The notes: generated from the letters alone by a model not told the origin. A stretch of DNA of 64,000 nt from Minisyncoccota bacterium (GCA_041666045.1 JBAYHR010000004.1:4996-68995), one strand, 5' to 3'. Positions 20,216-60,964 are shown, counted from the first letter of the stretch. Program-made: numbers and translations.

Positions 20216-20641
20216 TTATATAAATTCTATCTCAAAAGGATACATACCCATTCCACAAGTGCCCTCAAATGTGCCTACTTTTTGTATTCCTATATCAATA
20301 TCTGTTGTACCAGACATTGGTAAATTTTTAGTTAAATTCATACTAGGAATTCTAAGAATAGAAGAACAATCAAAAGTACCATTGGTGTTAACTCTTAATA
20401 TTGTAGGAATACCAGCTTTCGCAGTACTTTTTATTGGGAAAAATCCACCCTTAGCTTTAACTTCAACAATTTGTTTACCATCTACAATAAAAACATTATT
20501 CACATTCTGCTCTTCTATCACCTTTTTTCCTTTAGGAGAAGAAGATGAAAAGTAAATTGCTCCGCCAACAATTAACCCTGCAACTATAATAGAAATTATT
20601 ATTGACGTATTTGAATTATTTATTTGTTTTGTTTTACTCAT
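20216..20641 (-). CDS. Hypothetical exported/membrane-anchored protein, possibly metal-binding
   Basis: N-terminal TM; Cys/Met-containing C-terminus (TCGMGMYP); located in the copper cluster; start probably at the second Met because the first 10 codons are encoded by a repeat copy. Confidence 0.35.
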   Translation of the reverse strand: MSKTKQINNSNTSIIISIIVAGLIVGGAIYFSSSSPKGKKVIEEQNVNNVFIVDGKQIVEVKAKGGFFPIKSTAKAGIPTILRVNTNGTFDCSSILRIPSMNLTKNLPMSGTTDIDIGIQKVGTFEGTCGMGMYPFEIEFI

Positions 20642-36169: not shown

Positions 36170-37163
36170 TACTAAGTTTATACCCATTCCCATGCCCCAG
36201 CATCCCCAAATACGAAGCAATGGTATTAGGTTTTTGATTATTCTTTAAATTCCTAAACATCCTTTTCTTTGTGCTATTTCGTAATACTCTGTGTTTAGGA
36301 AAATGTACCCAGCCTAAGAAATCCACACCTGAATAAATAGTTTTAATAAAAACTTTATCTGGATGCATAGTTAATTTTAATTCATTTTCTAAAAACTCTT
36401 TCATTTGTTCTAAAATATTTTCCAAATAATTTTTGTCTTGCGATAATATAACAAAATCATCAGCGTATCTTATATAATATTTCACTTTCAATTTATGTTT
36501 TACAAATTGATCAAATTCATTCATATAGATATTTACAAGGAGTTGAGAAGTTAAATTACCCAAAGGCAAACCTTTTGAAAGTGACACAAACTCTGCCATG
36601 GCAGAGTTTGTGTCACTTGTATAAAAACTATCTATAATATTATCTAAAAGCCAAATGATATCTTTATCTTTTATAAATTTTACTAAAATACTTTTTAAAA
36701 TATTATGATCAATACTCGCAAAGAATTTTTTAATATCACATTTTAAAACCCAACAGGTTTTTGAATTATTTTTACTAACTTTGCGAAAATAATCCCTAAA
36801 CTTATTCATTCCCTTATGAGTACCTTTCCATTTACGGCAAGAATATGAATCACTGATAAATTTTGAATCAAAGAAAAAATACATTTTTTGATAAAGAGCG
36901 TGATGCAATATCCTGTCACAAACAATGGCTTTATGTATATCACGAGGTTTTGGATCAGAAATTTTAAAAGCATAATATCCTGAATGTTTATAATTTTTTG
37001 TTTTTAAATCATTGTGAAGTTTTAATAAATTTTCCATTAAATTTCTTTGCCAAATTTGAACATCTTTTTTATTTGATTTTTCGCTCCTAAAATTTTTCCA
37101 CGCCAAAAGTAAATTTTCCAAAGATATGATATCATTGTAACTATGAATAAAAGTTTTTATCAT
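36141..37163 (-). CDS. Diversity-generating retroelement reverse transcriptase
   Basis: RT motifs including YIRYADDFVIL (YxDD) and the DGR-specific LGxxxSQ (LPLGNLTSQ); 340 aa; the last 8 codons are shared with prfB. Confidence 0.85.
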   Translation of the reverse strand: MIKTFIHSYNDIISLENLLLAWKNFRSEKSNKKDVQIWQRNLMENLLKLHNDLKTKNYKHSGYYAFKISDPKPRDIHKAIVCDRILHHALYQKMYFFFDSKFISDSYSCRKWKGTHKGMNKFRDYFRKVSKNNSKTCWVLKCDIKKFFASIDHNILKSILVKFIKDKDIIWLLDNIIDSFYTSDTNSAMAEFVSLSKGLPLGNLTSQLLVNIYMNEFDQFVKHKLKVKYYIRYADDFVILSQDKNYLENILEQMKEFLENELKLTMHPDKVFIKTIYSGVDFLGWVHFPKHRVLRNSTKKRMFRNLKNNQKPNTIASYLGMLGHGNGYKLSMFIEAERNL

Positions 37164-37176
37164 TCTTCTGATATTA

Positions 37177-37187
37177 CCCCCCCCCCC
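37177..37187. repeat. C11 homopolymer in the 31-bp divergent RT/avd intergenic region
   Basis: Direct reading; striking in a ~30% GC genome. Confidence 0.8.
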
Positions 37188-37194
37188 GACGATT

Positions 37195-37545
37195 TTGCCA
37201 GTTATGCAAAGGGTAAAAACTGTGTATATCCTATGGTTTGAATATTATAAAAAATTAGAAAAAACACACAAATACACGCTTGGTCAAAAAATTGATAATT
37301 TATTTATAGAAATAATAGAAGCCGTATCAATTGCCACATTTTTAGATAAAACAGAAAAACAACCCTGGATAAGACTTGCAATACGGAAATTAGATACAAT
37401 AAAAATACTTTTAATGATACTTTGGGAAACAAAATCTCTTGATAATAAAAAATATATAAACATTTCCAAACCAATAGATGAAATAGGCAGAATGCTCGGT
37501 GGTTGGAATGGACAGCTTACAAAACAAAACTCTCCCAATAAATAG
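37195..37545 (+). CDS. avd: DGR accessory variability determinant (Avd, four-helix-bundle protein)
   Basis: 116 aa basic protein; C-terminal IDEIGRMLGGWNGQL matches the Avd/TIGR02436 EVGRILGSWI region; helical pattern. Confidence 0.7.
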   Translation: MPVMQRVKTVYILWFEYYKKLEKTHKYTLGQKIDNLFIEIIEAVSIATFLDKTEKQPWIRLAIRKLDTIKILLMILWETKSLDNKKYINISKPIDEIGRMLGGWNGQLTKQNSPNK

Positions 37546-37563
37546 GGAGAGAAATGAAAAGAG

Positions 37564-37696
37564 TTGCGAGAGAGAAAAACAAAGCGATTGTTGCCACTCC
37601 ACTTGTTGTCTAAATTCCCATTATTGTTGTTAAGCCACAACCCATCGTTATTGCATTCCACATTGAAAATCCTAGGATTGCCATCGCGATCAGTAT
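37564..37696 (-). repeat. DGR template repeat (TR)
   Basis: 133-bp direct repeat of the VR; differs from the VR only at positions that are A on the sense (minus) strand. Confidence 0.85.
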
Positions 37697-38005
37697 ATAT
37701 AAACTATCATCTATGCCACCACCCTTAGAATGCTCTCCGGGTTGAATTTTATTTAGTATCTAAAATACTTCAATAGTTTATACCAAGTAATTTCATTTTT
37801 TAATGAAGTGTCTGCACACATTACACTATTTTTAATCTTAATTAAAAATATTCTGAATGCATGGATACTGGATTCGGTAGTGAAAAACCTTAATCTTTCA
37901 CATATTCACCTACTACCATTTTTATTTTATCATACTTTTTTTAAAAAAATTCAAAGTTCAAAAATCAAAGAGTCAAAAGAATTCTAAATTGCAAAATCCT
38001 AAGTT

Positions 38006-39859
38006 CTAATTCTTGCGAGAGAGAAAAACAAAGCGATAGTTGCCACTCCACCTGTCGCCTAAATTCCCATCATAGCTGTCAAGCCACAACCCATCGCCAT
38101 AGCATTCCACACCGAAAATCCTAGGACCGCCATCGCGATCAGCAATAGAATCCATCGCAATTCTTAACCATTCTCCCATAAGTTGATCTTTATAATTAAG
38201 TCTAAGCTCTGGACCAACTTGTGGTGGACATAATTCTAAACCAAGTTTTTTTGCTTTATTGTATATTTCTTTTAAAGTAGCTCCATTTGGAAAACCGAGT
38301 TGTTCTATTGAAAATGAAACTAGATTAATTTTTTCTTTTTGTTTTAATGGCTCTATTTTATTTAACATATCTTGAGCATAAGAATATATTTTCATTCCTT
38401 GTACTTTTATTTCTTTTGTATATTCTTCTGATGTTTTAGTTGTAAGTTCTATATTTTTTCTAAATATTTTCTTTTCAGGAAATGATTCATATAAATATTC
38501 AATATTTTTTGGAATCTTTTTTGCAATTTCCGGATTCCATTCTCCTATATATGCTTTAGTATTTTCGTTTATTTCATCTTTATTATATGCAATCTGTTCT
38601 GAATTGCATTCAAAAATAATTGATGCATCTTCTTTGATATTTCTTTGTTTTCTTAATTCTAAAATTCGTGGATCTTTTTCATAACCAAAACTTGAAATAG
38701 AATCATTCATCTCATATAGAAAAACTAAATCTTGTTTGGTAAATTGTTCATTCTTTTCTTGTTTTTTAACAAGCTCAGTCACTTTTTTCATATCATTTGA
38801 TTTTTTATCAAATTTTTCTCCACCCGGCAAAGAATGATATTTTTCTTGTGCAGTATCTATCAAAACAGGTTCTAATTCTTGTCGGTGATTCACTCCACGC
38901 ACTTCTGCTATTTCATCTCCTTGCATTCTAATTGCAATTCTGGGCTCAGAATAATTACCAGCTGTTCCTTTAGTGTAATAAACATAAAAATCACCACCTT
39001 GCAGATGACTTGGCGCGCTTCCTTCGGCTGTACACCAGCCTGTGCCTTTGCCACGAAGTGCATTTTCTAAAATATGATAATCAGAACCTTGATCATATTT
39101 TACCCATTCACCTTTTAATGATTCACGATTTAATGTTCCAGCTGTTTCTATTTGAGCAAAAGTGTAAAGTTTTACAAAATCTTTCTTTTCTATCATCTTT
39201 TCTAAATCAGCTCTTTTTTGTTTTTGATCTTCCCCTGTGAATTCTTGGCTACCGATACCAGTAGTTAGCATTCTGTAAACAAAACCAAGCGCTTCGGAAT
39301 TTATTTCTGGAAATGGAGCAATTGTATAATCTGTGCGTTTACTATACTCTCCTTTTTCTTTATTAAGAGTTCCCATTTTAGACAAATTGCGAACAATAAA
39401 ATACCGAAACCAAGTCGGATATTCTGCATCGTTTTGTTTTAAGTAATCAAGCCAGCCATTTAATGATTTTACTTGAATTTCTCTTTTTTCTTTAGCAAGA
39501 TTTTCATAACCTTTTATTAGCTCATCATTATCTTCCAACTTCATTATTTCATTGCTTCTGCCTTGTTCTATTGCAATTCTTTTTTCTGATTCATAAAGAC
39601 CAACAGCGATTTTTGTAAGTGTATCTTCATCTTTAGTGTCTATGGCTAAATCTTTTATTATTTTATTTTTTAGTAATTCCCAACCTCGCTCGTCTTCCAC
39701 TATTTTATCAAGACGATCTAAATACGCTTCTATTCTTTCATCACGAGAATGCGGAGCAAATTTTCTTTCTGGATCTTTTTTAGCTTTTTCTACTGCTCGA
39801 ACAACCGGTTTTGAACCCGGTAAATCTGAATATTTTTGTTCAAGAAAATTCTTTTTCAT
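38006..39859 (-). CDS. DGR target protein with C-terminal variable (CLec/FGE-like) region
   Basis: 617 aa, no signal peptide; C-terminus ...GVECYGDGLWLDSYDGNLGDRWSGNYRFVFLSRKN is encoded by the VR. Confidence 0.8.
   Translation of the reverse strand: MKKNFLEQKYSDLPGSKPVVRAVEKAKKDPERKFAPHSRDERIEAYLDRLDKIVEDERGWELLKNKIIKDLAIDTKDEDTLTKIAVGLYESEKRIAIEQGRSNEIMKLEDNDELIKGYENLAKEKREIQVKSLNGWLDYLKQNDAEYPTWFRYFIVRNLSKMGTLNKEKGEYSKRTDYTIAPFPEINSEALGFVYRMLTTGIGSQEFTGEDQKQKRADLEKMIEKKDFVKLYTFAQIETAGTLNRESLKGEWVKYDQGSDYHILENALRGKGTGWCTAEGSAPSHLQGGDFYVYYTKGTAGNYSEPRIAIRMQGDEIAEVRGVNHRQELEPVLIDTAQEKYHSLPGGEKFDKKSNDMKKVTELVKKQEKNEQFTKQDLVFLYEMNDSISSFGYEKDPRILELRKQRNIKEDASIIFECNSEQIAYNKDEINENTKAYIGEWNPEIAKKIPKNIEYLYESFPEKKIFRKNIELTTKTSEEYTKEIKVQGMKIYSYAQDMLNKIEPLKQKEKINLVSFSIEQLGFPNGATLKEIYNKAKKLGLELCPPQVGPELRLNYKDQLMGEWLRIAMDSIADRDGGPRIFGVECYGDGLWLDSYDGNLGDRWSGNYRFVFLSRKN
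38013..38145 (-). repeat. DGR variable repeat (VR) at the 3' end of the target gene
   Basis: About 17 substitutions relative to the TR, all at TR adenines (13 A->G, 4 A->T in coding sense); the 3'-terminal ~30 nt are identical (IMH-like). Confidence 0.85.
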
Positions 39860-39903
39860 ATTTTTATATTACCATATAATTTATAAAAATCCAGCGTTTA
39901 AAA

Positions 39904-43237: not shown

Positions 43238-43275
43238 AAAGTGATTTTTATAACTCTTGCCAAAGTTTGATTTAG

Positions 43276-43310
43276 CGAAATCATGTCGCGCAACCGTCCT
43301 TATAGCGCGA
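43276..43310. repeat. GC-rich repeat, family A copy 1 (TTTGATTTAGCGAAATCATGTCGCGCAACCGTCC)
   Basis: Near-identical copy 71 bp downstream and a third copy at 20641. Confidence 0.6.
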
Positions 43311-43346
43311 CCTGTTCGTCAACATCTAGTCCAGTTGTCTGATTTT

Positions 43347-43381
43347 GCGAAATCATGCCGCGCAATCGTCCATCAAAGCGT
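43347..43381. repeat. GC-rich repeat, family A copy 2
   Basis: About 90% identical to copy 1. Confidence 0.6.
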
Positions 43382-43397
43382 GGCCCTTGCTAAGCAA

Positions 43398-43426
43398 GGA
43401 CGGTCCTTGCTATCCAAATGATTTTT
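43398..43426. repeat. 29-bp direct repeat TGCTAAGCAAGGACGGTCCTTGCTATCCA (candidate att, copy 1)
   Basis: Exact second copy at 48410-48438; contains the 19-bp palindrome AGCAAGGACGGTCCTTGCT. Confidence 0.7.
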
Positions 43427-43545
43427 TATCCACAGCCCAATTTATAATCATTGCACTTTTACTATTAAAAAACATAAAAATATATCATCAAAATAATTTT
43501 AAAGACGCTATTAAGATGCATAACTCTTTTTAAAAACCTAGACTT

Positions 43546-44019
43546 ATGCTATATTGTAAACTACCTAAAAGTATGACTATAGAAGATATAAAACCAGACG
43601 AAGAACCAACATCTCCACAAGAAACAGGAGAAGTAAAATCCCCCGAAGGTAAAGCCCCTTGGTCTTCTTTAAACTCAATAATTCAAGAGCAAGATATAAA
43701 AAGTGTAAAAGATTTTAAATTAGTTAGTAAAATGTTGCTTGGAGAAATTAATCGTTTAATAAAAGAGGTTGGGCAGTTAAACTCTCTTACAGAAGATTAT
43801 AACAAAAAAAATACTGAATTAGCAGTCTTAAAAGAACGACTAGGGGCTTTCAATGTTAGATCATTTTTATTTTCCATAGGAGGTTTATTGGGTGGTGTCG
43901 CTTTTATACCAAATTTATCAACTAGTCAAGAAATTGGAGTAGTTTTGTTGTGTGTTATATGTTTTATGATAGCTATGTTAAACCCCGATTGGTTAAATAA
44001 TTTGTTTGGTAAAAAATAA
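43546..44019 (+). CDS. Hypothetical protein with C-terminal TM segment
   Basis: ORF only. Confidence 0.35.
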   Translation: MLYCKLPKSMTIEDIKPDEEPTSPQETGEVKSPEGKAPWSSLNSIIQEQDIKSVKDFKLVSKMLLGEINRLIKEVGQLNSLTEDYNKKNTELAVLKERLGAFNVRSFLFSIGGLLGGVAFIPNLSTSQEIGVVLLCVICFMIAMLNPDWLNNLFGKK

Positions 44020-44386
44020 TTTTATGAAATTAAAAATAACAAGAATTATAGATGTTGGAAATAAAGAAAAGGAACGAATTGTCCTTAAGGCTTTAGATGA
44101 TGTTAATGTTGGTAGCTATGTAATTTTTAAATCTAAAAAAATTGGAGAAACAATGGTATCTAATATAATCCCTTACACTTTTTGGTTTAAAGACCAACAG
44201 GTTAAAAAGAATGATTTGGTTGTAGTTTATACAAAAACAGGAATACCTAAATCTATTTTGAATGCTACTGGAAATACTTCACACTTTTTTTATTGGAATC
44301 AAAATAATTTTATATTAAATAACGATAATGATGCTATTGTTTTATTGAATGTTAATGAATGGAATTTAAAATTCGTAAAAGAATAA
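44006..44386 (+). CDS. Hypothetical protein
   Basis: ORF only. Confidence 0.35.
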   Translation: MVKNNFMKLKITRIIDVGNKEKERIVLKALDDVNVGSYVIFKSKKIGETMVSNIIPYTFWFKDQQVKKNDLVVVYTKTGIPKSILNATGNTSHFFYWNQNNFILNNDNDAIVLLNVNEWNLKFVKE

Positions 44387-44475
44387 TAATACCTAGTAAC
44401 AATTTTTAAAGTAAAAAAATGAACTACTTTGATGAAATGTAATTATAGTTATGACACTTAAAAGAGAAAAAGACC

Positions 44476-47400
44476 TTAAATTTCAAGTTTAATGTTACCA
44501 ACAATTTTTTCTTTACCTTCGTCGTCTTCTATCCATTCTGAATATCCAATCCTGAAAAAATTCCACCCTGCGCTTTCTAAAACTTGCTGTCTTTGTATAT
44601 CACTTTCCACATAAATACCATAAGCTTCGTCTATATTATCTTTAAAATGAGTAGGACCATCACATTCAATTGCTAGCTGATTACCATTCTTTAAATTTGT
44701 AATAACAAAGTCAATTTTAAAACCACAACTTTCTACTTGATTTTGAATTGTATACCCCCTACCAAGTTTCTTTTTTAATAAATAATAAAATTCTTCTTCA
44801 AAGAAACTATCAAATTTTTTAAGGGCTAATTTAGAAGCTGAAACCTCTCCGTTATCTCTAACATATTCCAAGTATTTCTTTATCCATATACCATTAGGAA
44901 TTTTCTCAATAGGTAAACTTAAAATACAATGAACTTGTAATCTTGCTCGTGAAAATGCAACGTTCACTCTACCAGCATTTATGTCAGCTTTTATATCTCC
45001 AGTTTCCCCAGTTAATGGAATATACTGCCTTTTTTGAGAAGGGTCTCTAATTACAAAAGAGTAGATTATAATATCTTTTTCGTCTCCCTGTATACCTTCA
45101 ATCACCGCAATTTTTAGCTTTTCGCTTTCTTTAATCCTATTATCTTCAAAAACCTTTCTAATTAGTTCTGCTTGGTCATTAAAAAAAGTTAATACCGCAA
45201 ATGTTTTTCCCTCGTATTTCGGATCATCAACCATTTCTTGATATAGTTCAAAAGCTTTTATAGCTTCAGCTCTATTAGTATTATCACTTATTTCTCCTAC
45301 ACCATTATTTTGAATGTTATGAAGAACCATTATTCGGTTTGTATCTTGGTAGGTTAGATATTTATTATTTAAAGCTATCAAACGTTTACCTTTTGGTTCA
45401 TAAAAGTATTTATTACTAAAACCTATCAACTCCATTGGAGAACGATAATGATATTGGAGTATTTTAGGTATACCAAATCTTGTTTTTGCAATATCTAAAA
45501 CTGATTGAACGGCTGTTCCAGTTGGTTTTATTTGTAAACTTTCAGGAACTTTGAAACGACTAGCAAGTTGGTCAAAGGCATTGTTTGATTTAAACATTAC
45601 GGTGCTATCCCTCATTTGTTCAGGGTCACCTACAAATATAGATTTCTTGGCTCTATACATTGAAGGAATTGTGTAAGCGATATTACATTGAGAAGCTTCG
45701 TCAAACACTACATAATCAAATAAATTTGCCACCAAAGGAATAAGCCGACTAGCGTCGTCTAAATCCATAATCCAAACAGGAACTACATTTAATATGGTCT
45801 CAAAGTTATTTGGGTCGCTCTTTAGTTTATCAAAAGTTTTAAATGCTTTTTTTGATTTTTTAAATGCTTTTTGTAATTCTTGAAGTTTTCTGTATATCTT
45901 AACCTGTGAGACATTTCTCTTGATATTATCTTCTATAATTGCCGACAAATACTGTGAAATAATTTCTTTTCTTGTAATATAATTTTTGCTGGTTACTTCC
46001 TTTTTGAGTTTAGTAATTTCATCAACTAAATTTTTTTGGTCGTGATTTAGCGTAATACGGTCTGATAATTTTACTACTAGTTCAGTAGCTGTTATAGATT
46101 TTTCTTTCAAGAATTTAAATAATTCGGAAAGGTTCTCCCTTGATAAATCTAAATTATCTTCTATTTCTTTAAGAGAAATTTCTAGCTTTTCGTTTTCAAT
46201 GGTTGCTTCCCAATAACTACAAAATCGAAGTAGCTGTTCTAGTTCTTGTGTAGCAATATGGCGAGATATGTCTTTCCCAAGAATAGAATTTATTTCTTCA
46301 TAGATTTCTTTTGGTAATTTGGTTAAATGTGATTTAAGTCGGATCTTTCGGCTCAAATTATTTATGTATCTTCCTAGATTAAATGACCTATCAAAGCCAG
46401 TTTTTTTAACGTCAAGAAGAACGGTTTTAACCAAATCTGAAAAAGCAAAATCAGAAAATAAACCTCTATCAAGATTGTATTTTCTTGAAATCGCTTCCAA
46501 GCTCTCAATTAAGGTATTGTTTTCTGATATTCTTTTTTGTGTTTTTATATATGAACTATGTAATTCTTCAGTAAGGTTTGTTAAAATCTTTTCTTCATTC
46601 AATTCAGGAAGTTCTTGCAAAAAATCATACTCACACTTTTTTTCTTCAAGTTCATACACATTTCTTTCAAGTGCGATAGACCTGTCTCTTTTACTTAAAC
46701 TTTCGTCGGTGGTTTGAGTAAATTCTCCTAAATTTGAATTGTCTTTTATGTTATTTTTTTGAGCGCCGTAAGTATCCAAAGAAGCTAATTGAGACGATAT
46801 TGTGTCACTTTCTTCGTCATTTAATTGCTGAAATTTTACGCTAGGTATGTAGCCAAAAAGTAAAGGCACTTCCAGCGTTTTCAATTTGTCTTTTACAACA
46901 CGCAGGGCTTGTGGCTTTTGACTTACAAATAATACTTTATTCTTATTAACTGCTAAATGTGAAATTATATTGGAAATAGTTTCCGATTTTCCTGTTCCGG
47001 GCGGTCCTTGAATTATGGAAGCTTTATTGCCCAAAAGAGAGGTTGTTGCTCTTTGGAATTTATCGTATGGGAATGGAAAATATAAAGCTTTTTCTTCGCA
47101 AACATCAGAATTGATATTTAAACCTTCTTCTGAAAACCAGCCAGATAGAGAAGTATTTTCTAAAAGTTCTTCTTTTTCTCTTGAAAGTTTTGTTAGGTCT
47201 TCAACTAAAAAGAAATTTGCTCTTGGTGCTAATGTTAATCTCAATTCTTCAAGTGTGAAAGATTTTTCATTGAAAGTTGCTTCGGTTAGTTTCAGCTTTG
47301 CTTTTAAAATATGCCATAAATCTAAAAAAGCTTTTTCGGAAGTAATGGGAATAGAGAACGCTTCCTCGCTTTCCATTTTTACATAATCATTTAAAAATTC

Positions 47401-48009
47401 GTAAACTAAATCTTCTTTTTTATATGTTCTAAAGATTTCATAGAGTGGGGGTAAATTTAAACGAACTTCAAAATCAACTGGTGTAATTGAGTATCTGTCT
47501 GTATTATTTTTATCCTTTTCTTTATCAACCCTCACTGGTAGTGAAAATAAATAAAATTGTTTTAACACTAATTTTGCTTCAGCATTTTCAATAAGCTTTA
47601 GTTGTATATTTTCTTCAACTTCTTCCTCGTTTTCTATTATTGGTTCTTCTAAAACTTCAAAGTCAAACTTACCGAAGCGAAGAATTGTTTCTTTCGTGAA
47701 GGAGTCATTTTTTGCCTTATTGTATATTTCGTCTATCTGCAATGCGAGAGCTTTTTCTGCTTTATACTGCTCTGCAATTTCTTCAGTAATATCCTTTGGG
47801 TCGGTATTATAATAACAATCCAAGTTAACAATTTCACTCAAATTGCCGTCAGTATCTCCATTGATAAGATTTGTTAAAGAAAAGTATTTTTGCGGTAATT
47901 TAATGTCTAGTGATGTCCCCCTATTAAAACCTGTCGGCCTAGTTAAACTTAAATATCCCAAACAGTATTTAATATAAGAATTTAAGGAAAATTCCATAAG
48001 TAAACTCAA
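44476..48009 (-). CDS. Large SF1 helicase (AAA_11/AAA_12, Upf1/DNA2-like) fused to a C-terminal DUF559/Vsr-like endonuclease domain
   Basis: Walker A IIQGPPGTGKSETI, Walker B VVFDEASQ, C-terminal ...FKIDFVITNLKNGNQLAIECDGPTHF restriction-endonuclease-like domain; 1177 aa. Confidence 0.7.
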   Translation of the reverse strand: MSLLMEFSLNSYIKYCLGYLSLTRPTGFNRGTSLDIKLPQKYFSLTNLINGDTDGNLSEIVNLDCYYNTDPKDITEEIAEQYKAEKALALQIDEIYNKAKNDSFTKETILRFGKFDFEVLEEPIIENEEEVEENIQLKLIENAEAKLVLKQFYLFSLPVRVDKEKDKNNTDRYSITPVDFEVRLNLPPLYEIFRTYKKEDLVYEFLNDYVKMESEEAFSIPITSEKAFLDLWHILKAKLKLTEATFNEKSFTLEELRLTLAPRANFFLVEDLTKLSREKEELLENTSLSGWFSEEGLNINSDVCEEKALYFPFPYDKFQRATTSLLGNKASIIQGPPGTGKSETISNIISHLAVNKNKVLFVSQKPQALRVVKDKLKTLEVPLLFGYIPSVKFQQLNDEESDTISSQLASLDTYGAQKNNIKDNSNLGEFTQTTDESLSKRDRSIALERNVYELEEKKCEYDFLQELPELNEEKILTNLTEELHSSYIKTQKRISENNTLIESLEAISRKYNLDRGLFSDFAFSDLVKTVLLDVKKTGFDRSFNLGRYINNLSRKIRLKSHLTKLPKEIYEEINSILGKDISRHIATQELEQLLRFCSYWEATIENEKLEISLKEIEDNLDLSRENLSELFKFLKEKSITATELVVKLSDRITLNHDQKNLVDEITKLKKEVTSKNYITRKEIISQYLSAIIEDNIKRNVSQVKIYRKLQELQKAFKKSKKAFKTFDKLKSDPNNFETILNVVPVWIMDLDDASRLIPLVANLFDYVVFDEASQCNIAYTIPSMYRAKKSIFVGDPEQMRDSTVMFKSNNAFDQLASRFKVPESLQIKPTGTAVQSVLDIAKTRFGIPKILQYHYRSPMELIGFSNKYFYEPKGKRLIALNNKYLTYQDTNRIMVLHNIQNNGVGEISDNTNRAEAIKAFELYQEMVDDPKYEGKTFAVLTFFNDQAELIRKVFEDNRIKESEKLKIAVIEGIQGDEKDIIIYSFVIRDPSQKRQYIPLTGETGDIKADINAGRVNVAFSRARLQVHCILSLPIEKIPNGIWIKKYLEYVRDNGEVSASKLALKKFDSFFEEEFYYLLKKKLGRGYTIQNQVESCGFKIDFVITNLKNGNQLAIECDGPTHFKDNIDEAYGIYVESDIQRQQVLESAGWNFFRIGYSEWIEDDEGKEKIVGNIKLEI

Positions 48010-48054
48010 TTATAGCAAAATAAATGAATAAATAATAGTGTTGTGTAATTACAA

Positions 48055-48387
48055 TTATGCAACATTAAACTTCTCAAAAACCTGAAATACGTCCACTGTT
48101 TTCTTCCTAATATCAATCTCGTCGTCATATACGATAAGCATTTCAAGCGAAGAATGTCGGCTAAACTTTCTTACGTCTCTGACATCAAGTTTTTTGAGCA
48201 AGGCAGTAATGAAGAAGTGGCGAAATCCGTGAACTCCTTTTTCAATCCCAACTTCTTTACACAAAGAACCTAGCTGGCGTTTTATTGTCATTGTGGTTAT
48301 CCTTTCACTTTTTCTATTTCCCATACTTTTAAACAAAGCTCCACTTCCGACTTTATTAGTTTTTATGTATTCTCTCAAAACATTCAC
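48055..48387 (-). pseudogene. Truncated tyrosine recombinase/integrase (C-terminal catalytic fragment only)
   Basis: HGFRHFFITALL (box II HxxR) and SRHSSLEMLIVY (catalytic Tyr region); the usual N-terminal ~250 aa are absent. Confidence 0.6.
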
Positions 48388-48409
48388 AGTTTGCGGTGCT
48401 AAATAAATA

Positions 48410-48438
48410 TGCTAAGCAAGGACGGTCCTTGCTATCCA
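48410..48438. repeat. 29-bp direct repeat (candidate att, copy 2)
   Basis: Exact match to 43398-43426. Confidence 0.7.
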
Positions 48439-48512
48439 GAGATTGAACCGGAGACCTCGTTTCCGCCAGAGGCGGACAAGCTTACCAAGAAATGCGGCAT
48501 TTATCCCGTAAG
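48439..48512 (-). other. Partial duplicate of the tRNA-Thr(GGT) 3' half (anticodon loop to T-arm) with a 19-nt insertion after the anticodon loop
   Basis: TTCTTGGTAAG[CTTGTCCGCCTCTGGCGGA]AACGAGGTC matches the tRNA segment TTCTTGGTAAGAACGAGGTC; there is not enough 5' sequence for a complete tRNA. Confidence 0.5.
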
Positions 48513-48585
48513 AGCCGACAATCAGATTTGCACTGATGACCTCGTTCTTACCAAGAACGTGCTCTACTACCTGAGCTATGTCGGC
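48513..48585 (-). tRNA. tRNA-Thr (anticodon GGT) with atypical T-loop (TGCAAAT)
   Basis: Manual fold: acceptor GCCGACA/TGTCGGC, D-arm GCTC-AGGTAGT-AGAGC, anticodon stem CGTTC/GAACG with loop TTGGTAA, T-stem ATCAG/CTGAT; positions 55 and 57 are non-canonical. Confidence 0.7.
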
Positions 48586-48659
48586 TCTTATGGGACCAAC
48601 TATTCTTACAAAATCATATTAGTTTATTTCTGATAATTTTGCAAAAATATTAAAAAATA

Positions 48660-48733
48660 CAGTTAGAAAATTTTCGAGCTGGTCTGGCCCCAAACCGAGG
48701 ACCCGAGAAAATTTTGCTAACTGTATTTTTTTT
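48660..48733. terminator. Long inverted repeat (~18-bp stem, GC-rich 25-nt loop) with T-runs on both sides; bidirectional terminator or small structured RNA
   Basis: cagttagaaaattttcgag ... ccgagaaaattttgctaactg. Confidence 0.45.
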
Positions 48734-48740
48734 GTTTAAA

Positions 48741-49757: not shown

Positions 49758-49797
49758 ATATTAATTATAACATATTGTAAAATATGCCTAATCTTGC

Positions 49798-49871
49798 GCG
49801 ACCGACCGGATTTGAACCGGCAACCTCCCGCGTGACAGGCGGGTGCTCTAACCAGTTGAGCTACGATCGCA
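49798..49871 (-). tRNA. tRNA-Asp (anticodon GTC)
   Basis: Manual fold: acceptor GCGATCG/CGGTCGC, anticodon stem CCCGC/GCGGG with loop CTGTCAC, T-arm GCCGG-TTCAAAT-CCGGT. Confidence 0.8.
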
Positions 49872-50063
49872 TTATTAATACATAAACAGATATTTTATTT
49901 TACCACACAATCGTTCCGCCTAGGCGGGTGCTCGCTATAGTCTGGTCTGAGTTGAGCTACGATCGCATTATTAATACATAAACAGATATTTTATTTTACC
50001 ACACAATCGTTCCGCCTAGGCGGGTGCTCGCTATAGTCTGGTCTGAGTTGAGCTACGATCGCA
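49872..50063 (-). repeat. Tandem duplication, 2 x 96 bp, each unit carrying a tRNA-Asp 5'-fragment (acceptor plus D-arm) fused to unrelated sequence
   Basis: Units 49872-49967 and 49968-50063 are identical; each ends with GCGATCGTAGCTCAAC (the tRNA-Asp 5' end) but lacks a foldable 3' half. Confidence 0.8.
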
Positions 50064-50360: not shown

Positions 50361-50993
50361 TTAAATAAATCCAAATTCACGGAAAACTTGCTCATATAAA
50401 GCAACTACCCTTTTTGCTTCCCTACTTGTAAGTTCAAATTGTAAACCTTCATGCGCTATTCTGTTTCTTACAATATGGGCTTCCCAAGCATCATCAACAC
50501 TGCGAAACCTATCTCTATCAATCATTTTTAATTTTTCTCCCAGATTCTCTCCCTTATATCCAAGTTGATCCAGCAACGCTTCAAGCATAGAATCTGCTTC
50601 TATTATTGCAACTTTCCAATCAGCTGAATTTTCTGAAAAAAGATGATCTAATACTCCTTCCCATCTTTTATTTTTTTGTCCTTCTCCTTTATTCATCAAT
50701 GCCTTTTCTTTTTCAGCTTGCTTTTGTGCGTATAATGCAATTTGTTGATGTAAAAATTCTTTTTCTTTTTTTCTTATTTCAAATATGCGAATAGCGCAAT
50801 AAATAATTATAATAAGAAAAAATAATGCAAGAAAAAAAAGTATAAATTTTAAAATACCTACAAATTCAGCATTAAAAAGATTACGAAAAAAATTAAGAAT
50901 TTGATTGAATAAATATTCCAAATTCAAAAAAGTTGGATCAAAAAGTTTATTTTGAGTAGCTGTATTTAAATTTAATGATTGTGATAAATCCAT
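50361..50993 (-). CDS. Membrane-anchored HEPN-like (DUF4145-type) protein
   Basis: N-terminal TM; C-terminal helical domain with RNRIAHE (Rx4H HEPN motif). Confidence 0.45.
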   Translation of the reverse strand: MDLSQSLNLNTATQNKLFDPTFLNLEYLFNQILNFFRNLFNAEFVGILKFILFFLALFFLIIIIYCAIRIFEIRKKEKEFLHQQIALYAQKQAEKEKALMNKGEGQKNKRWEGVLDHLFSENSADWKVAIIEADSMLEALLDQLGYKGENLGEKLKMIDRDRFRSVDDAWEAHIVRNRIAHEGLQFELTSREAKRVVALYEQVFREFGFI

Positions 50994-51111
50994 CCCGTTA
51001 GAAATAGGAAATCTTTAGATTTCCGTAGTTAATTTATTAATAATAATTTCTATGCACTTCATAATTTATATATCCCACGAAACACAACTTAACTTTTTGA
51101 TTTCTAACGGG
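50994..51111. mobile_element. MITE-like element, copy 1 (118 bp; TIR CCCGTTAGAAAT; TSD ATCCAT)
   Basis: Terminal inverted repeats, internal palindrome GGAAATCTTTAGATTTCC, flanked by a 6-bp direct repeat; sits between the gatA stop and the downstream gene start. Confidence 0.75.
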
Positions 51112-51118
51112 ATCCATA

Positions 51119-52516
51119 TTATATATTTTCTCTTAAATCCTTTTCAATAGCAAATAATGACTCATCAGAAAATGCTGGACCAGTAAATTGTATCCCAAAT
51201 GGCAAACCATTTTCTGAAAAACCAGAAGGTATTGAAATTGAAGGAATCCCAGCAATATTTGCTGGTACAGTAAAAATATCAGATAAATACATTTGCAAAG
51301 GATCTTTCTTTTCTCCAAATTTAAAAGCTGATGTAGGAGTGGTAGGTGTAACAACAAAATCAACTTCTTTAAAAATATTTTTAAATTCTTCTTCTATGGC
51401 ATAACGAACTTTCCAAGCTTTATTATAATAAGCATCATAATATCCATGAGATAAAACGTAAGTTCCCAAGATTATTCTTCTTCTAGTTTCCGCTCCAAAG
51501 CCAACTGACCTGCTTTTTTTATATGTTTCAAATAAAGTATCTCCATCTTTTCGCAATCCATATCGCACTCCATCTAATCTGGATAAATTGGTAGAAACTT
51601 CTGCAGGCATAATAATATAATATACTGCCAAAGAATATTTTGAATATGGCAAATCTATATCAATTATTTCATAACCTTTATCTTTTAATTTTTGAATTGA
51701 TTCTTCAAAATTTTGTAAAACTTCTTTATCTACTCCTTCTTTTAACCAATCACGCGGAATGCCAATTTTTTTGCCTCTTGATTTAGAAATCAAACCAATA
51801 CTAGTAGAATCCATTTCATCTTTTCCAGAGATAACATTAAAAATTATTTGCGAATCTTCTGAATTCTTTGCAAATGGACCTATTTGATCTAAAGAAGAAG
51901 CCATAGCCATAACTCCAGAACGCGAAACAATGCCATAAGTAGGTTTCATTCCAACTATTCCGCAAAAACTTGCTGGTTGACGTATAGAACCTCCTGTATC
52001 AGATCCTAAAGCGCCAAGAGCCATACCAGATGCCACAGCAACAGCAGAACCGCCAGAAGACCCGCCGGGTACGCGTGAAATATCAAATGGATTTTTAACA
52101 GAACCAAAAGCAGAATTTTCAGTTGAACTTCCCATTGCAAATTCATCCATATTCGTCCTACCTATTAAAACTGCGCCAGATTCTTTTAATTTTTTAATTA
52201 CAAAAGCGTCATAGCTCGCAGTATAATTTTCTAACATTTTAGAACCTGCGCTTACTTTTTTTCCAGTTATTAAAATATTATCTTTGATTGCAATTGGTAT
52301 ACCTGTTAAATTGGTTCCCTTGCCAGATTTTATAATTTCATCCGCTTTTTTTGCTTGATCTAAAGCATCAGAAAAAACTTCAAGAAATGCATTTAATTCT
52401 TTATTTTTTTCTTCTATATTTTTTAAACAAGCTGAGACTAATTCTACAGAAGTTAATTCTCCAGAATTCATCATTTCCCCTGCTTTTTTAATAGTTAAAT
52501 TTTTTACATCAAGCAT
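51119..52516 (-). CDS. gatA: Glutamyl/aspartyl-tRNA amidotransferase subunit A
   Basis: Amidase signature GGSSGGSAVAVASG; 465 aa. Confidence 0.95.
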   Translation of the reverse strand: MLDVKNLTIKKAGEMMNSGELTSVELVSACLKNIEEKNKELNAFLEVFSDALDQAKKADEIIKSGKGTNLTGIPIAIKDNILITGKKVSAGSKMLENYTASYDAFVIKKLKESGAVLIGRTNMDEFAMGSSTENSAFGSVKNPFDISRVPGGSSGGSAVAVASGMALGALGSDTGGSIRQPASFCGIVGMKPTYGIVSRSGVMAMASSLDQIGPFAKNSEDSQIIFNVISGKDEMDSTSIGLISKSRGKKIGIPRDWLKEGVDKEVLQNFEESIQKLKDKGYEIIDIDLPYSKYSLAVYYIIMPAEVSTNLSRLDGVRYGLRKDGDTLFETYKKSRSVGFGAETRRRIILGTYVLSHGYYDAYYNKAWKVRYAIEEEFKNIFKEVDFVVTPTTPTSAFKFGEKKDPLQMYLSDIFTVPANIAGIPSISIPSGFSENGLPFGIQFTGPAFSDESLFAIEKDLRENI

Positions 52517-52799: not shown

Positions 52800-52916
52800 C
52801 CCGTTTAGAAACAGGTCGCGGTCTATTTCAAAAAATAAACTACTCCTGTCTTACTTATTTAAATAATAATACAACACAATACCCCCTTAAAAACTGCGAC
52901 CGCGGTTTCTAACGGG
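52800..52916. mobile_element. MITE-like element, copy 2 (117 bp; same TIR; TSD TCCAT)
   Basis: CCCGTTTAGAAAC...GTTTCTAACGGG with extended GC-rich inverted arms AGGTCGCGGT/ACCGCGACC; lies between the htpX stop and the gatC start. Confidence 0.75.
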
Positions 52917-52943
52917 ATCCATTATTAGATTATAGCAAAAATT

Positions 52944-59406: not shown

Positions 59407-59964
59407 TTATTGCTGAGTTTTTTGTTTATTTAACTTCTTATATAAAAATCTGACTAAATAAGCAGTTAAAATTCCCAAAATAAAACCTCCTAAAATATCA
59501 ATTGGGAAATGCACTCCTGCGACAATACGAGCTACTCCAATTAATAATGCAAAAAATATAAATAAATAACCAATTTTTTTGTGACTGAAAAATATAGCAA
59601 AAGCTAAAGCCATATAGAATGTCGCATGACCAGACGGAAAAGCAAAACCTGTTTCCGGAATAAGACTTGATACATTTTGAAATTCTACAAATGGTCTAGG
59701 TGTATGAATTAACAATTTTAAAACTTGTGAAATACACCAAGCAAAAATTCCAGAGAAAAAAACCAAAACAATTTCCTTCCATCTTTTTGCAAAAACTTTA
59801 AAAGGATTTTTTGAAAGTAAAACATCATGGTGAAAAAGTAAAAATATTCCCGCCAAAAAAATTACAATATAAGGAAAAGTATGTGCTATAAAAACAACAA
59901 ATTTATCGAAAAATTCTGATCTATGAGCTAAATTATAAAAAAAGAAAAAAATTGTATTATTCAT
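59407..59964 (-). CDS. PAP2 family phosphatase (undecaprenyl-diphosphatase-like)
   Basis: KxxxxxxRP-like, PSGH (FPSGHATF), and SRxxxxxHxxxD-like (RIVAGVHFPID) motifs. Confidence 0.75.
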   Translation of the reverse strand: MNNTIFFFFYNLAHRSEFFDKFVVFIAHTFPYIVIFLAGIFLLFHHDVLLSKNPFKVFAKRWKEIVLVFFSGIFAWCISQVLKLLIHTPRPFVEFQNVSSLIPETGFAFPSGHATFYMALAFAIFFSHKKIGYLFIFFALLIGVARIVAGVHFPIDILGGFILGILTAYLVRFLYKKLNKQKTQQ

Positions 59965-60081
59965 CCCGTTAGAAATAGGAAATCTTTAGATTTCCGTAGT
60001 TAATTTATTAATAATGACTTCTATATACTTCATAATTGTTTATCTTACAAAACACAACTTAACTTTTTAATTTCTAACGGG
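59965..60081. mobile_element. MITE-like element, copy 3 (117 bp; TSD ATTCAT); supplies the last codons and stop of folD
   Basis: About 90% identical to copy 1; flanked by a 6-bp direct repeat; the folD reading frame ends NESR-TAG inside the element TIR. Confidence 0.75.
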
Positions 60082-60964
60082 ATTCATTGTATGTTTGTTT
60101 TAAATTATTTTTTGCTACATTTACTACATTTTTCAATAACATAGCTACAGCCACAGGCCCCACTCCCCCAGGCACAGGCGAAACAAAACTCGCAACATCT
60201 TTCACTGAATCCAAATCAACATCTCCAACGATAGCACCATTTTCTTCAGAAGTTCCAGCATCTATTATCACAACTCCGCTCTTGACCATATCACCTGTAA
60301 TATATTTTCCATTCCCCATTCCAGAAATTATTATATCAGCTTGTTTTATAAGATCTTCTTTATTCTCCCCGCCTGCATCGCTATGCGAAGCATTGCGGGC
60401 AGGTGTTTTGCGAGTAATCACTTTTGGATTCAACCCACGAAATTTAAGAAGTGCCGTAACGGGTTTTCCCACTAATTCACCTTGACCTAAAACAACTATT
60501 TTTTTACTTTTTAAATCTAAATTCAAAGAATCTAAAATCTCCATACAAGAAAGCGGAGCTGGCAGACCTAAATCTATTTTTCCACCATAAAATTCTTTAC
60601 TCCTCTCTTCTCCTAAACAATCAACATCAAGACTAGGATCAATCGCATCTAAAATCTTTTTTTTATCTAAAGATTCTGGAAGTGGAAGTTGAATAATTAT
60701 TCCACACATATTTGGCATTTTATTTAAAATTTTTATTTCTTCCACAAGCTCATTGGTAGATATAGTTGAAGGAAAAATAGCATCATGGAAACTAATGCCG
60801 ACAGATTCTGCTGTACGCTTTTTCATACGCACATATTGAGTTGAAGCTAAATCATCACCAATAAGCACATCGCAAAAAATAGGCTTAAACGATAAAGAAG
60901 CCACATCTTTTTTTAATTTAGATAAAATTTCATCGCGTATTTTTCTCCCGTTAATTATTTTCAT
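60074..60964 (-). CDS. folD: Bifunctional methylenetetrahydrofolate dehydrogenase/cyclohydrolase FolD (with 13-aa GC-rich insertion)
   Basis: FolD core motifs (YVRMKKR, GGVGP); 296 aa; insertion PARNASHSDAGGE relative to canonical FolD. Confidence 0.9.
   Translation of the reverse strand: MKIINGRKIRDEILSKLKKDVASLSFKPIFCDVLIGDDLASTQYVRMKKRTAESVGISFHDAIFPSTISTNELVEEIKILNKMPNMCGIIIQLPLPESLDKKKILDAIDPSLDVDCLGEERSKEFYGGKIDLGLPAPLSCMEILDSLNLDLKSKKIVVLGQGELVGKPVTALLKFRGLNPKVITRKTPARNASHSDAGGENKEDLIKQADIIISGMGNGKYITGDMVKSGVVIIDAGTSEENGAIVGDVDLDSVKDVASFVSPVPGGVGPVAVAMLLKNVVNVAKNNLKQTYNESR

What the first reader, a model, noticed from the sequence alone, without database searches (positions are those of the whole stretch)
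43250..48600. Putative integrated-island remnant at tRNA-Thr(GGT): 29-bp direct repeats, partial tRNA duplication, integrase fragment and a giant helicase-nuclease
An exact 29-bp GC-rich repeat, TGCTAAGCAAGGACGGTCCTTGCTATCCA, occurs at 43398-43426 and 48410-48438. It contains a 19-bp palindrome. The repeats flank ~5 kb containing two small hypothetical genes, a 1177-aa SF1 helicase-DUF559 nuclease and a 110-aa C-terminal fragment of a tyrosine integrase (box II and the catalytic Tyr region only). The distal repeat abuts a duplicated 3'-half of tRNA-Thr(GGT), which itself abuts the intact tRNA. A tRNA, a partial tRNA duplicate, an integrase and direct repeats together are the classic footprint of a tRNA-targeting integrative element, here apparently decayed because the integrase is truncated. 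Two copies of another GC-rich ~34-bp repeat (family A, 43276 and 43347; third copy at 20641) sit just outside the proximal boundary and could be arm-type binding sites or another small repeat family.
Basis: partly seen in the sequence, partly recalled or inferred. Interest (0 to 1): 0.7.

Follow-up and report, generated by a model that had tools for sequence, protein, structure and literature searches.

The report
Decayed mobile island flanked by REP-like hairpins
Next to a threonine tRNA gene in this tiny AT-rich Patescibacteria genome lies a broken piece of a mobile island carrying a helicase-nuclease, but the 29-base "boundary repeats" are copies of a small palindromic repeat found across this bacterial group and tied to an IS200-like transposase, not integration scars.

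Summary
It brackets two small ORFs, a 1173-aa helicase-nuclease and a 118-codon integrase remnant.

The att-site reading fails. The 19-bp palindromic core, AGCAAGGACSGTCCTTGCT, occurs at 122 sites in 106 stretches of other genomes, from at least 52 assemblies, nearly all Patescibacteria. In 16 of those loci it sits beside a Y1 (IS200/RAYT-like) transposase gene, and where both gene ends are visible it usually brackets the gene. It has no hits in viral contigs. Neighbouring copies in one genome usually share 4-6 flanking bases, so 29-base identity is typical of the family. No tRNA-derived repeat exists at the far boundary.

The island idea survives in part. The integrase remnant plus helicase is 88.6% identical over 3.9 kb to a full integrase-helicase module in another Patescibacteria MAG, in a different chromosomal context. 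A full-length relative of the integrase lies beside a phage terminase. The integrase break falls exactly at the edge of one palindrome. A degenerate tRNA-Thr(GGT)-like fragment lies between that palindrome and the intact tRNA.

Verdict: an ordinary decayed island, overlaid by a REP-like repeat family that I did not find described for this group. Interest is modest.

The parts
43268..43312 (-). Family A copy 1. A two-hairpin GC-rich motif of about 45 nt; on the minus strand it reads GGTCGCGC-13 nt-GCGCGAC, then TGATTT-CGCT-AAATCA.
   Evidence: Repeat family D4. Folds at -12.1 kcal/mol, z = -4.6. The same motif lies directly 5' of ATG codons at window 20640 and L011 4366, and inside a coding region in L067. 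No Rfam match.
43313..43339 (-). Remnant of a small acidic ORF that is intact in relative L110, here sandwiched between the two family A copies.
   Evidence: Read from the sequences: window gttcgtcaacatctagtccagtt against L110 cttcgtcaacatctaagccagtt. BLAST homology with L110 otherwise stops at 43265.
43340..43385 (-). Family A copy 2, more degenerate, abutting the proximal palindrome.
   Evidence: One compensatory stem change relative to copy 1 (T-A to C-G), read from the sequence.
43388..43416 (.). Proximal 29-mer: a REP-like palindromic element with its core at 43393-43411. It is preceded by a nested partial copy, CCTTGCTA, at 43385-43392.
43546..44019 (+). 157-aa ORF of unknown function.
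   Evidence: No Pfam, NCBIfam or PADLOC hit. Absent from the L132 and L136 islands.
44024..44386 (+). 120-aa ORF of unknown function, with only a weak sub-threshold lamin-tail-domain hit.
44476..47997 (-). SF1 helicase fused to a Vsr/DUF559-type nuclease (1173 aa), related to the Hhe/ProA/PDC-S37 single-protein defence candidates.
   Evidence: Pfam AAA_11, AAA_12, MTES_1575, DUF559. NCBIfam ProA 228 bits and Hhe 140 bits, both far below their cut-offs. PADLOC PDC-S37, Hhe, Mko. Full-length relatives at 45-92% identity in many Patescibacteria lineages.
48010..48054 (-). Conserved non-coding stretch after the integrase stop codon (..ATAATTGTAATTACACAAC..), also present after the integrase gene in L120 and L121.
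   Evidence: Read. The pattern search hit L120 and L121 only; the window copy differs by three bases (TTG for CTA in ATAACTATAATTACACAAC), so its similarity was read by eye.
48055..48408 (-). Tyrosine integrase remnant. The last 118 codons are kept (HxxR, H and Y present); about 184 N-terminal codons are missing.
48410..48438 (.). Distal 29-mer: a REP-like palindromic element with its core at 48415-48433. It sits exactly at the integrase break on one side and overlaps the T-stem of the tRNA-like fragment by 4 nt on the other.
48435..48498 (-). Degenerate tRNA-Thr(GGT)-like fragment. Parts: anticodon arm 48491-48481; 19-nt hairpin insert 48480-48462; variable region AACGAGGTC 48461-48453; T arm 48452-48435.
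   Evidence: ARAGORN and Rfam do not call it.
48513..48585 (-). Intact tRNA-Thr(GGT), with the unusual T loop UGCAAAU (G where U55 is expected).
   Evidence: (61 bits).

Best explanation
The region is a decayed piece of a mobile, integrase-borne island lodged beside tRNA-Thr(GGT). Two copies of a REP-like palindromic repeat overlie it.

Shown:
- The integrase remnant plus the helicase-nuclease form a module that exists with a complete 300-aa integrase in another Patescibacteria genome, in a different chromosomal context.
- The 19-bp palindrome is a dispersed, mostly extragenic repeat across Patescibacteria. In other genomes it brackets a gene for a 224-246 aa Y1 HUH (IS200/RAYT-like) transposase, about 30 nt before the ATG and 0-25 nt after the stop.
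- The window has no such gene.
- The integrase homology stops at the edge of the distal palindrome.

Inferred:
- The palindromes spread, or once spread, as single-stranded hairpins handled in trans by the Y1 transposase, as for REP/RAYT and IS200/IS605 elements.
- A palindrome-associated event removed the integrase 5' part and the end of the tRNA-like fragment. This could have been an insertion followed by a deletion, or recombination between two copies.
- The tRNA-like fragment is a scar of earlier integration at this tRNA.
- The helicase-nuclease is probably an anti-phage cargo gene.
- The two 29-mers are therefore generic repeats that happen to bracket the remnant, not recombination products of the integrase.
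For: - The 29-mer is exact and occurs twice.
- The core is found in 106 stretches from at least 52 assemblies, almost all Patescibacteria. A uniform-composition estimate gives about 4 hits by chance in 596 Gb. It has 0 hits in viral contigs.
- 16 of the 106 loci carry a Y1_Tnp gene, and in all but L062 the palindrome or a GAAC variant lies next to it. The HUH motif (NHFH) and the YIHxN tyrosine motif are invariant across six copies.
- 90 of 119 sites lie outside long ORFs.
- Neighbouring copies share 4-6 flanking bases in L030, L047, L055, L060 and L021, as in the window.
- L132 homology covers window 48405-44477 at 88.6% identity, with a full integrase upstream. L129 carries an integrase 85% identical in nucleotides with its N-terminal part present. 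An IMG/VR relative of 322 aa lies beside a terminase.
- Helicase relatives sit in variable islands with serine recombinases, a KAP NTPase or AAA_15/21 genes.
- The tetranucleotide signature of 43417-48409 is at the 98th percentile of 5-kb windows.
Against: - No Y1 transposase gene lies in the 64-kb window, so activity in this genome is unproven.
- Only two palindrome copies are visible here, and at most about 8 exact copies were seen per MAG. That is far fewer than in classical REP families.
- The transposase scores below NCBIfam's RAYT cut-off (23.5 against 80 bits) and has no sequence match in the PDB.
- GC content of the segment equals the background (30.2% against 30.0%).
- No empty site was found, and the left limit of the foreign DNA is undefined.
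- The helicase family is so widespread and length-conserved in Patescibacteria that it could be partly vertically inherited.
- That the palindrome caused the truncation is inferred only from position.
Confidence: 0.68

Rival explanations
1. The 29-mers are attL and attR of one tRNA-targeting integrative element whose integrase has since been truncated.
For: An exact direct repeat brackets a segment that holds an integrase remnant next to a tRNA and a tRNA-like fragment. The palindrome has the symmetry of a core-type recombinase site.
Against: - The core is a generic repeat in over 50 other genomes with unrelated flanks, and it is tied to Y1 transposase genes.
- No palindrome accompanies the intact integrase in L132, or the relatives in L119-L121, L129 and L130.
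- The repeat cuts into the integrase gene itself, removing about 184 codons.
- No tRNA-derived sequence lies at the far end.
- There are no hits in viral contigs.
Confidence: 0.06
2. The 5-kb segment is a hairpin-bounded cargo cassette. Two identical hairpins in direct orientation would act as left and right ends of a non-autonomous IS200/IS605-like unit. A Y1 transposase supplied in trans could then move the helicase-nuclease gene as single-stranded DNA.
For: - The architecture (same hairpin at both ends, direct orientation, identical 5-nt flanks) copies the minimal palindrome-transposase-palindrome units of 735-800 bp.
- Other pairs bracket ordinary genes in L016, L021, L030 and L047.
Against: - The same int-helicase module in L132 has no palindromes, and its homology ends at the helicase stop, not at a hairpin.
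- A captured, truncated integrase at one end is not expected of a clean cassette.
- No second copy of the bounded unit was found in another context.
- The palindromes also occur singly at most sites.
Confidence: 0.12
3. The palindrome is a functional host signal rather than a mobile-element relic. It could be a transcription terminator or insulator hairpin, or the operator of a conserved DNA-binding protein. The two copies here would simply punctuate transcription units.
For: - It is mostly intergenic.
- Some copies are extended stems followed by T runs, for example L105, L086, L077 and L007.
- The upstream copy lies at a fixed distance, about 30 nt, from the transposase ATG, like an operator.
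Against: - Only 17 of 119 sites have a T-rich tail.
- Neither window copy is called as a terminator.
- A 19/19 identity across classes of Patescibacteria, together with nested truncated copies and tight linkage to a transposase gene, fits a mobile or transposase-maintained repeat better.
Confidence: 0.1

Closest known systems
REP sequences and their RAYT (REP-associated tyrosine transposase) genes of Proteobacteria (from my own knowledge: E. coli TnpA-REP, Pseudomonas REPINs)
   Same: - A short hairpin-forming, mostly extragenic palindrome dispersed in the chromosome.
- A Y1 HUH transposase gene bracketed by the same palindrome.
- HUH and Tyr motifs present.
   Different: - The core is a perfect 19-bp palindrome, identical across many species and classes rather than species-specific.
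- Copy number per genome is low (a few to about 8 exact copies).
- Tandem transposase copies occur in L066.
- The protein has a C-terminal extension of about 100 aa and scores below the curated RAYT cut-off.
- No conserved flanking tetranucleotide was seen.
- Nested truncated copies lie next to many sites.
IS200/IS605 insertion sequences and their non-autonomous palindrome-associated derivatives (PATEs)
   Same: - A minimal unit of 735-800 bp: hairpin, transposase gene, hairpin.
- Solo hairpins without a transposase, as in this window.
   Different: - Both ends carry the same perfect palindrome rather than distinct left and right ends.
- No target tetranucleotide was identified.
- Multi-copy identical IS units were not shown.
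tRNA-targeting genomic islands and prophages with tyrosine integrases
   Same: - An integrase (remnant) on the 3' side of a tRNA gene, beside a partial tRNA-like copy.
- Variable cargo next to the integrase in relatives: a helicase, DUF4268, Dam-type methylases or an Xis-like gene.
   Different: - No pair of tRNA-derived direct repeats.
- The integrase is truncated.
- The intact relatives seen (L132, L119, L129) are preceded by a DUF488 gene, not a tRNA.
Hhe / ProA / PDC-S37 helicase-nuclease anti-phage proteins
   Same: An SF1 AAA_11/AAA_12 helicase core fused to a C-terminal Vsr-like (MTES_1575/DUF559) nuclease.
   Different: - The protein is shorter (1173 aa against models of 1550-1900 positions).
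- No DUF4011 hit.
- Scores are far below the curated cut-offs.
- It belongs to a Patescibacteria-wide family.
Rickettsia palindromic elements (RPEs). This comparison applies to family A only and rests on my own knowledge.
   Same: A short GC-rich hairpin element found between genes, at gene 5' ends and in frame inside a coding region (L067).
   Different: - Only five copies were seen here.
- No sequence relation to RPEs.
- Mobility is not shown.

Membership tests
tRNA-targeting integrative element (att-flanked island) | Intact tyrosine integrase with the full catalytic set (R, K, HxxR, H, Y) | tested here: not met
   Only the last 118 codons remain. Box I Arg and the Lys lie upstream of the break.
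tRNA-targeting integrative element (att-flanked island) | Direct repeats derived from the tRNA at both ends (attL/attR) | tested here: not met
   Local alignment of the tRNA side against the far boundary scored 16-17 against a shuffle mean of 18.7. The only direct repeat is the 29-mer, a generic repeat.
tRNA-targeting integrative element (att-flanked island) | Segment absent from the same site in relatives (empty site), or present elsewhere in another context | tested here: inconclusive
   The int-helicase module is present in another context in L132. No empty tRNA-Thr site could be found because relatives lack synteny.
tRNA-targeting integrative element (att-flanked island) | Partial tRNA copy adjacent to the target tRNA | tested here: met
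   Blocks of 11/11 and 9/9 shared in order, plus a T arm, 14 bases from the tRNA. The fragment is degenerate and carries a 19-nt insert.
REP/RAYT system | Short hairpin-forming palindrome dispersed mainly between genes | tested here: met
   124 sites in all (122 in other genomes plus the two here); 90 of 119 testable sites lie outside long ORFs. Hairpin fold.
REP/RAYT system | Y1 HUH transposase gene flanked by the repeat | tested here: met
   Met in other genomes: 16 loci. No such gene in this window.
REP/RAYT system | HUH motif and catalytic tyrosine | tested here: met
   NHFH and the YIHxN motif (Y, I, H and N invariant) in six copies. Pfam Y1_Tnp 28.5 bits against a cut-off of 23.
REP/RAYT system | Protein reaches the curated RAYT model cut-off | tested here: not met
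   NCBIfam REP_Tyr_transpos 23.5 bits against a cut-off of 80. No PDB sequence match.
REP/RAYT system | Tens to hundreds of repeat copies and a single RAYT gene per genome | tested here: inconclusive
   At most about 8 exact copies were seen per MAG, 3 in the 693-kb RAAC4 contig and 2 in this window. L066 has tandem transposase copies. Diverged copies were not counted, and the whole genome of the window is not available.
IS200/IS605 insertion sequence | Y1 transposase between subterminal hairpins, with several identical copies and a defined target tetranucleotide | tested here: inconclusive
   Hairpin-gene-hairpin units of 735-800 bp were seen. Copy number per genome and target site were not established, and flanks vary.
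Hhe / ProA helicase-nuclease defence proteins | SF1 helicase core plus C-terminal Vsr-like nuclease | tested here: met
   AAA_11, AAA_12, MTES_1575 and DUF559.
Hhe / ProA helicase-nuclease defence proteins | Score above the curated family cut-off, and a DUF4011 N-terminal region | tested here: not met
   ProA 228 against 1500 bits; Hhe 140 against 2000 bits. No DUF4011 hit in Pfam.
Hhe / ProA helicase-nuclease defence proteins | Protection against phage | not testable with these tools
   Needs an experiment.

The most novel reading that the evidence does not exclude
The perfectly conserved palindrome and its Y1 transposase form a Patescibacteria-wide hairpin-based mobilisation system. Pairs of hairpins, as here, would define cassettes through which defence genes such as this helicase-nuclease are cut out and moved as single-stranded DNA between these reduced genomes.
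Probability: 0.12. Interest if true: 0.6.

Novelty: new member of a known kind. Interest (0 to 1): 0.35.

Why it matters
For this window, the result corrects an annotation trap. An exact direct repeat beside a tRNA and an integrase fragment looks like an att pair but is a generic genomic repeat.

More broadly, Patescibacteria are usually treated as poor in mobile DNA. Three observations suggest an undescribed layer of small-element dynamics that shapes these genomes and breaks genes:
- A 19-bp palindrome is kept identical across dozens of species and classes.
- It is tied to a conserved Y1 transposase.
- It is accompanied by other small GC-rich hairpin families, some inside coding regions.

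The repeat is also a practical marker for assembly breaks and for finding variable or defence regions in these MAGs.

Tried and rejected
1. Family A as a two-repeat CRISPR-like array (period 72 nt). Rejected: the motif lies directly before ATG codons and in frame inside a gene elsewhere.

2. The 19-nt insert in the tRNA-like fragment as a tRNA intron. Rejected: the fragment has no D arm or acceptor strand, neither ARAGORN nor Rfam calls it, and the insert is not at position 37/38.

3. Logan contig ends as evidence for a population-level indel. L002 ends at 48538, and L117/L118 span 43342/43344-48567. Rejected as inconclusive: those ends fall in a tRNA and in the conserved family A motif, which other species in the same sample can share.

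4. Synteny or empty-site test through SppA and SOD relatives. L110, L111, L114, L122, L125 and L126 share no gene order with the window.

5. Search for an attP-like copy of the tRNA near intact integrase relatives (L119-L121, L128-L132). Nothing found.

6. Known RNA families for the palindrome, family A and the tRNA-like fragment. No meaningful Rfam hit.

7. An nhmmer profile of family A on all loci returned nothing, not even the input copies, so it was uninformative.

8. Association of the palindrome with tRNA genes in general. Only 2 of 35 tRNAs lie within 400 nt of a palindrome.

9. Literature searches for RAYT or REP elements in Patescibacteria, and for the palindrome sequence itself, found no description.

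10. Helicase relatives in viral contigs. None found.


Full report
**Source and setting**

The window is an AT-rich (30% GC) Patescibacteria contig. The same DNA occurs in ENA sample ERZ27249449 and in a 111.5-kb JGI contig that NCBI labels Candidatus Paceibacterota. Bacterial RF2, GatA/GatC and SecDF genes surround the region.

**Checking the observation**

The 29-mer is exact and occurs twice, at 43388-43416 and 48410-48438, with none expected by chance. It contains the 19-bp palindrome AGCAAGGACGGTCCTTGCT, which folds as an 8-bp hairpin.

Between the copies lie:
- a 157-aa ORF and a 120-aa ORF;
- a 1173-aa protein with AAA_11, AAA_12 and MTES_1575/DUF559 domains;
- a 110-aa ORF matching only columns 77-166 of 172 of Pfam Phage_integrase.

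tRNA-Thr(GGT) at 48513-48585 (minus strand) is intact at 61 bits.

The neighbouring "half tRNA" (48498-48435, minus strand) shares TTCTTGGTAAG and AACGAGGTC with the tRNA, in order. It also has a 19-nt insert between them, its own T arm with a canonical TTC loop, a differently paired anticodon stem, and no D arm or acceptor 3' strand. It is related to tRNA-Thr(GGT) but is not a simple duplicate of the resident gene.

**What the 29-mer is**

A scan of one genome per species (GTDB) with the 19-bp core found 106 stretches holding 122 sites. They come from at least 52 assemblies among the 80 loci listed, and nearly all are Patescibacteria: Paceibacteria, Nomurabacteria, Zambryskibacteria, Taylorbacteria, Colwellbacteria, Saccharibacteria and Minisyncoccia. 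There are often several per assembly, and the flanks are unrelated. A uniform-composition estimate gives about four chance hits in 596 Gb. The core has no hit in 2.9 million viral contigs.

Features of these sites:
- 90 of 119 testable sites lie outside long ORFs.
- Most are extended by 1-3 further complementary base pairs.
- Only 17 have a T-rich tail, so most are not classical terminators. Neither window copy is called as a terminator.
- Many carry nested, truncated copies of the palindrome plus its local flank next to them. The proximal window copy has one, CCTTGCTA at 43385-43392.

**Link to a transposase**

Pairs of palindromes 735-800 bp apart in six loci enclose a gene beginning MLRKDPF.TGEYYH.YNRG.
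- It hits Pfam Y1_Tnp (IS200-like), at 28.5 bits against a cut-off of 23 in one copy and 22.1 bits, just below it, in a second.
- Its best NCBIfam match is the REP-associated tyrosine transposase model, below cut-off.
- The HUH motif (NHFH) and a YIHxN tyrosine motif are invariant, and the six copies are 68-74% identical.

In all, 16 of the 106 loci carry such a gene. In all but one of them the palindrome, or a GAAC variant of it, lies next to the gene. Where both ends are visible there is usually one copy about 30 nt before the ATG and one 0-25 nt after the stop.

This is the architecture of REP/RAYT units and of minimal IS200-type elements. The window itself has no such gene, so its two copies are solo elements.

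Neighbouring copies within one genome commonly share 4-6 bases of flank on each side, as in L030, L047, L055, L060 and L021. The 5+19+5 identity in the window is therefore what this family normally shows.

**What survives of the island idea**

The helicase-nuclease has full-length relatives at 92, 89, 85 and 83% identity, and a large set at 45-48%, in many Patescibacteria lineages.

The 92% relative lies in MAG contig CAZXCD010000006 (L132):
- It is directly preceded by a complete 300-aa tyrosine integrase and a DUF488 gene.
- The neighbourhood is unrelated to the window: a cell-division gene cluster on one side; AAA_15/21 genes, an HTH_17 gene, a large serine recombinase and tRNA-Glu on the other.
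- Nucleotide homology with the window runs from 48405 to 44477 at 88.6%. That is from the edge of the distal 29-mer to the helicase stop codon.
- Reading both sequences shows that the integrase similarity starts immediately after the 29-mer.

Other relatives:
- L129 has an integrase 85% identical in nucleotides, with its N-terminal SAM-like part, followed by a different (DUF4268) gene.
- An IMG/VR contig has a 322-aa relative beside a terminase and an Xis-like gene.
- The 83% helicase relative (L136) has no integrase but sits among a serine recombinase, a KAP NTPase and DUF3800.

So the integrase is a phage-type enzyme of about 300 aa. The window keeps its last 118 codons, without the first catalytic Arg and the Lys. 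The integrase-helicase pair is a mobile module. The helicase resembles the ProA, Hhe and PDC-S37 defence candidates, but far below the curated cut-offs.

GC content of the segment equals the background. Its tetranucleotide signature is at the 98th percentile of 5-kb windows, which is weak support for foreign origin.

**What does not fit an att pair**

- No tRNA-derived sequence occurs at the far boundary.
- No palindrome accompanies the intact integrase in L132, or its relatives elsewhere.
- The distal 29-mer interrupts the integrase gene itself.
- An empty site could not be sought. Relatives fetched through SppA (89%, 79% and 47-48% identity) and SOD (80-84%) share no gene order with the window.
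- The contig ends of two Logan assemblies fall in the tRNA and in family A. I judged them uninformative because both sequences are conserved between species.

**The proximal boundary**

In relative L110, SppA is followed by a small acidic ORF. In the window only about 23 bases of that ORF survive (43314-43336), sandwiched between the two family A copies.

Family A is a two-hairpin motif of about 45 nt, with z = -4.6 for copy 1.
- It lies immediately 5' of ATG codons at window 20640 and at L011 4366, where the gene is a methyltransferase.
- It lies in frame inside a long ORF that I read as phosphoglycerate kinase in L067.
- It has no Rfam match.

It behaves like another small GC-rich insertion element or leader motif, not like arm-type integrase sites.

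**Most likely history (inferred)**

1. One or more integrase-borne elements entered next to tRNA-Thr(GGT). They left a tRNA-like scar and possibly replaced the tRNA's 3' part. The resident tRNA has an odd UGCAAAU T loop, whereas the fragment keeps a TTC loop.
2. The island decayed.
3. REP-like palindromes, maintained elsewhere by the Y1 transposase, came to lie at both edges.
4. A palindrome-associated insertion/deletion, or recombination between copies, removed the integrase 5' part and the end of the tRNA-like fragment.

A rarer possibility is that two hairpins in direct orientation make the 5-kb segment a cassette that the transposase could mobilise in trans. I rate this at about 0.1, because the L132 module lacks hairpins and its homology ends elsewhere.

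**Novelty**

Decayed islands at tRNAs and REP/RAYT or IS200 elements are both known kinds. My searches of the paper library found no description of this palindrome or of RAYT-type repeats in Patescibacteria. The family looks like an undescribed member with unusual traits: a perfect, cross-class conserved core, low copy number and nested truncated copies. For the finding as submitted, interest is modest.

Noticed in passing
window 37160-39860 (TR 37564-37693, VR 38013-38142): A diversity-generating retroelement. It has a 130-nt template/variable repeat pair in which all 15 differences are A in one copy and G or T in the other. bAvd and reverse-transcriptase genes lie next to it, and the variable copy sits at the 3' end of a 617-aa gene.
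   Followed up: partly
window 49854-50045: An exact 96-bp tandem duplication. Each unit starts with the first 17 bases of tRNA-Asp (49796-49870, minus strand), so the second copy leaves a partial tRNA-Asp 5' fragment.
   Followed up: no
window 23802-23866, 50988-51129, 52882-52920, 59959-60099; also L019, L076, L090: Another hairpin repeat family built on CCCGTTAGA...TCTAACGGG inverted repeats. One 47-nt stretch is 98% identical to a different Patescibacteria genome, L090.
   Followed up: no
L067 2495-2565: The family A motif lies in frame inside a 358-aa ORF that I read as phosphoglycerate kinase (no domain search was run). It adds about 16 residues (GRASMDGARHDSAES), in the manner of Rickettsia palindromic elements.
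   Followed up: partly
L010 4653-4720, L036, L044, L045, L024, L055 and others: Many palindrome sites are flanked by nested, truncated copies of the palindrome, each repeated together with the local 4-6-nt flank (for example TTCTAGCAA / TTCTAGCAAGGACGG / TTCTAGCAAGG / full copy). I know of no mechanism described for this pattern.
   Followed up: partly
window 48462-48480 and L084 6390-6420: The hairpin inside the insert of the tRNA-like fragment (TCCGCCTCTGGCGGAAA) is identical over 17 nt to part of a GC-rich inverted-repeat insert in L084, apparently within a coding stretch. This may be a third small hairpin family, or it may be chance (E = 0.003).
   Followed up: partly
window 48482-48497 and L023 3794-3809: The 16 bases CCGCATTTCTTGGTAA at the 5' edge of the tRNA-like fragment recur about 35 nt from a palindrome variant just after a Y1 transposase gene in L023. 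This is unexplained.
   Followed up: partly
window 48513-48585: tRNA-Thr(GGT) has G at the position of the near-universal U55 (T loop UGCAAAU). The other Thr tRNAs seen, tRNA-Thr(CGT) in this genome and a tRNA-Thr(TGT) in L034, have the canonical UUCGA loop.
   Followed up: no
window 48655-48735: A long imperfect inverted repeat (about 23-nt arms) around a GC-rich centre, between tRNA-Thr and the 92-aa gene. Short pieces of 17-24 nt match other Patescibacteria loci: L038, L036, L045, L034.
   Followed up: no
L016 4510-4570 and 5890-5945: Two palindrome copies 1.4 kb apart share 36 nt of left flank in direct orientation, but their central base is flipped (G against C). This hints at hairpin flip-flop or inversion of the core.
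   Followed up: no
L119 4993-6423, L129 3-1189, L132 8653-9943: A DUF488 gene directly precedes, and overlaps, the integrase gene in three unrelated contigs. This suggests a conserved DUF488-integrase pair.
   Followed up: no
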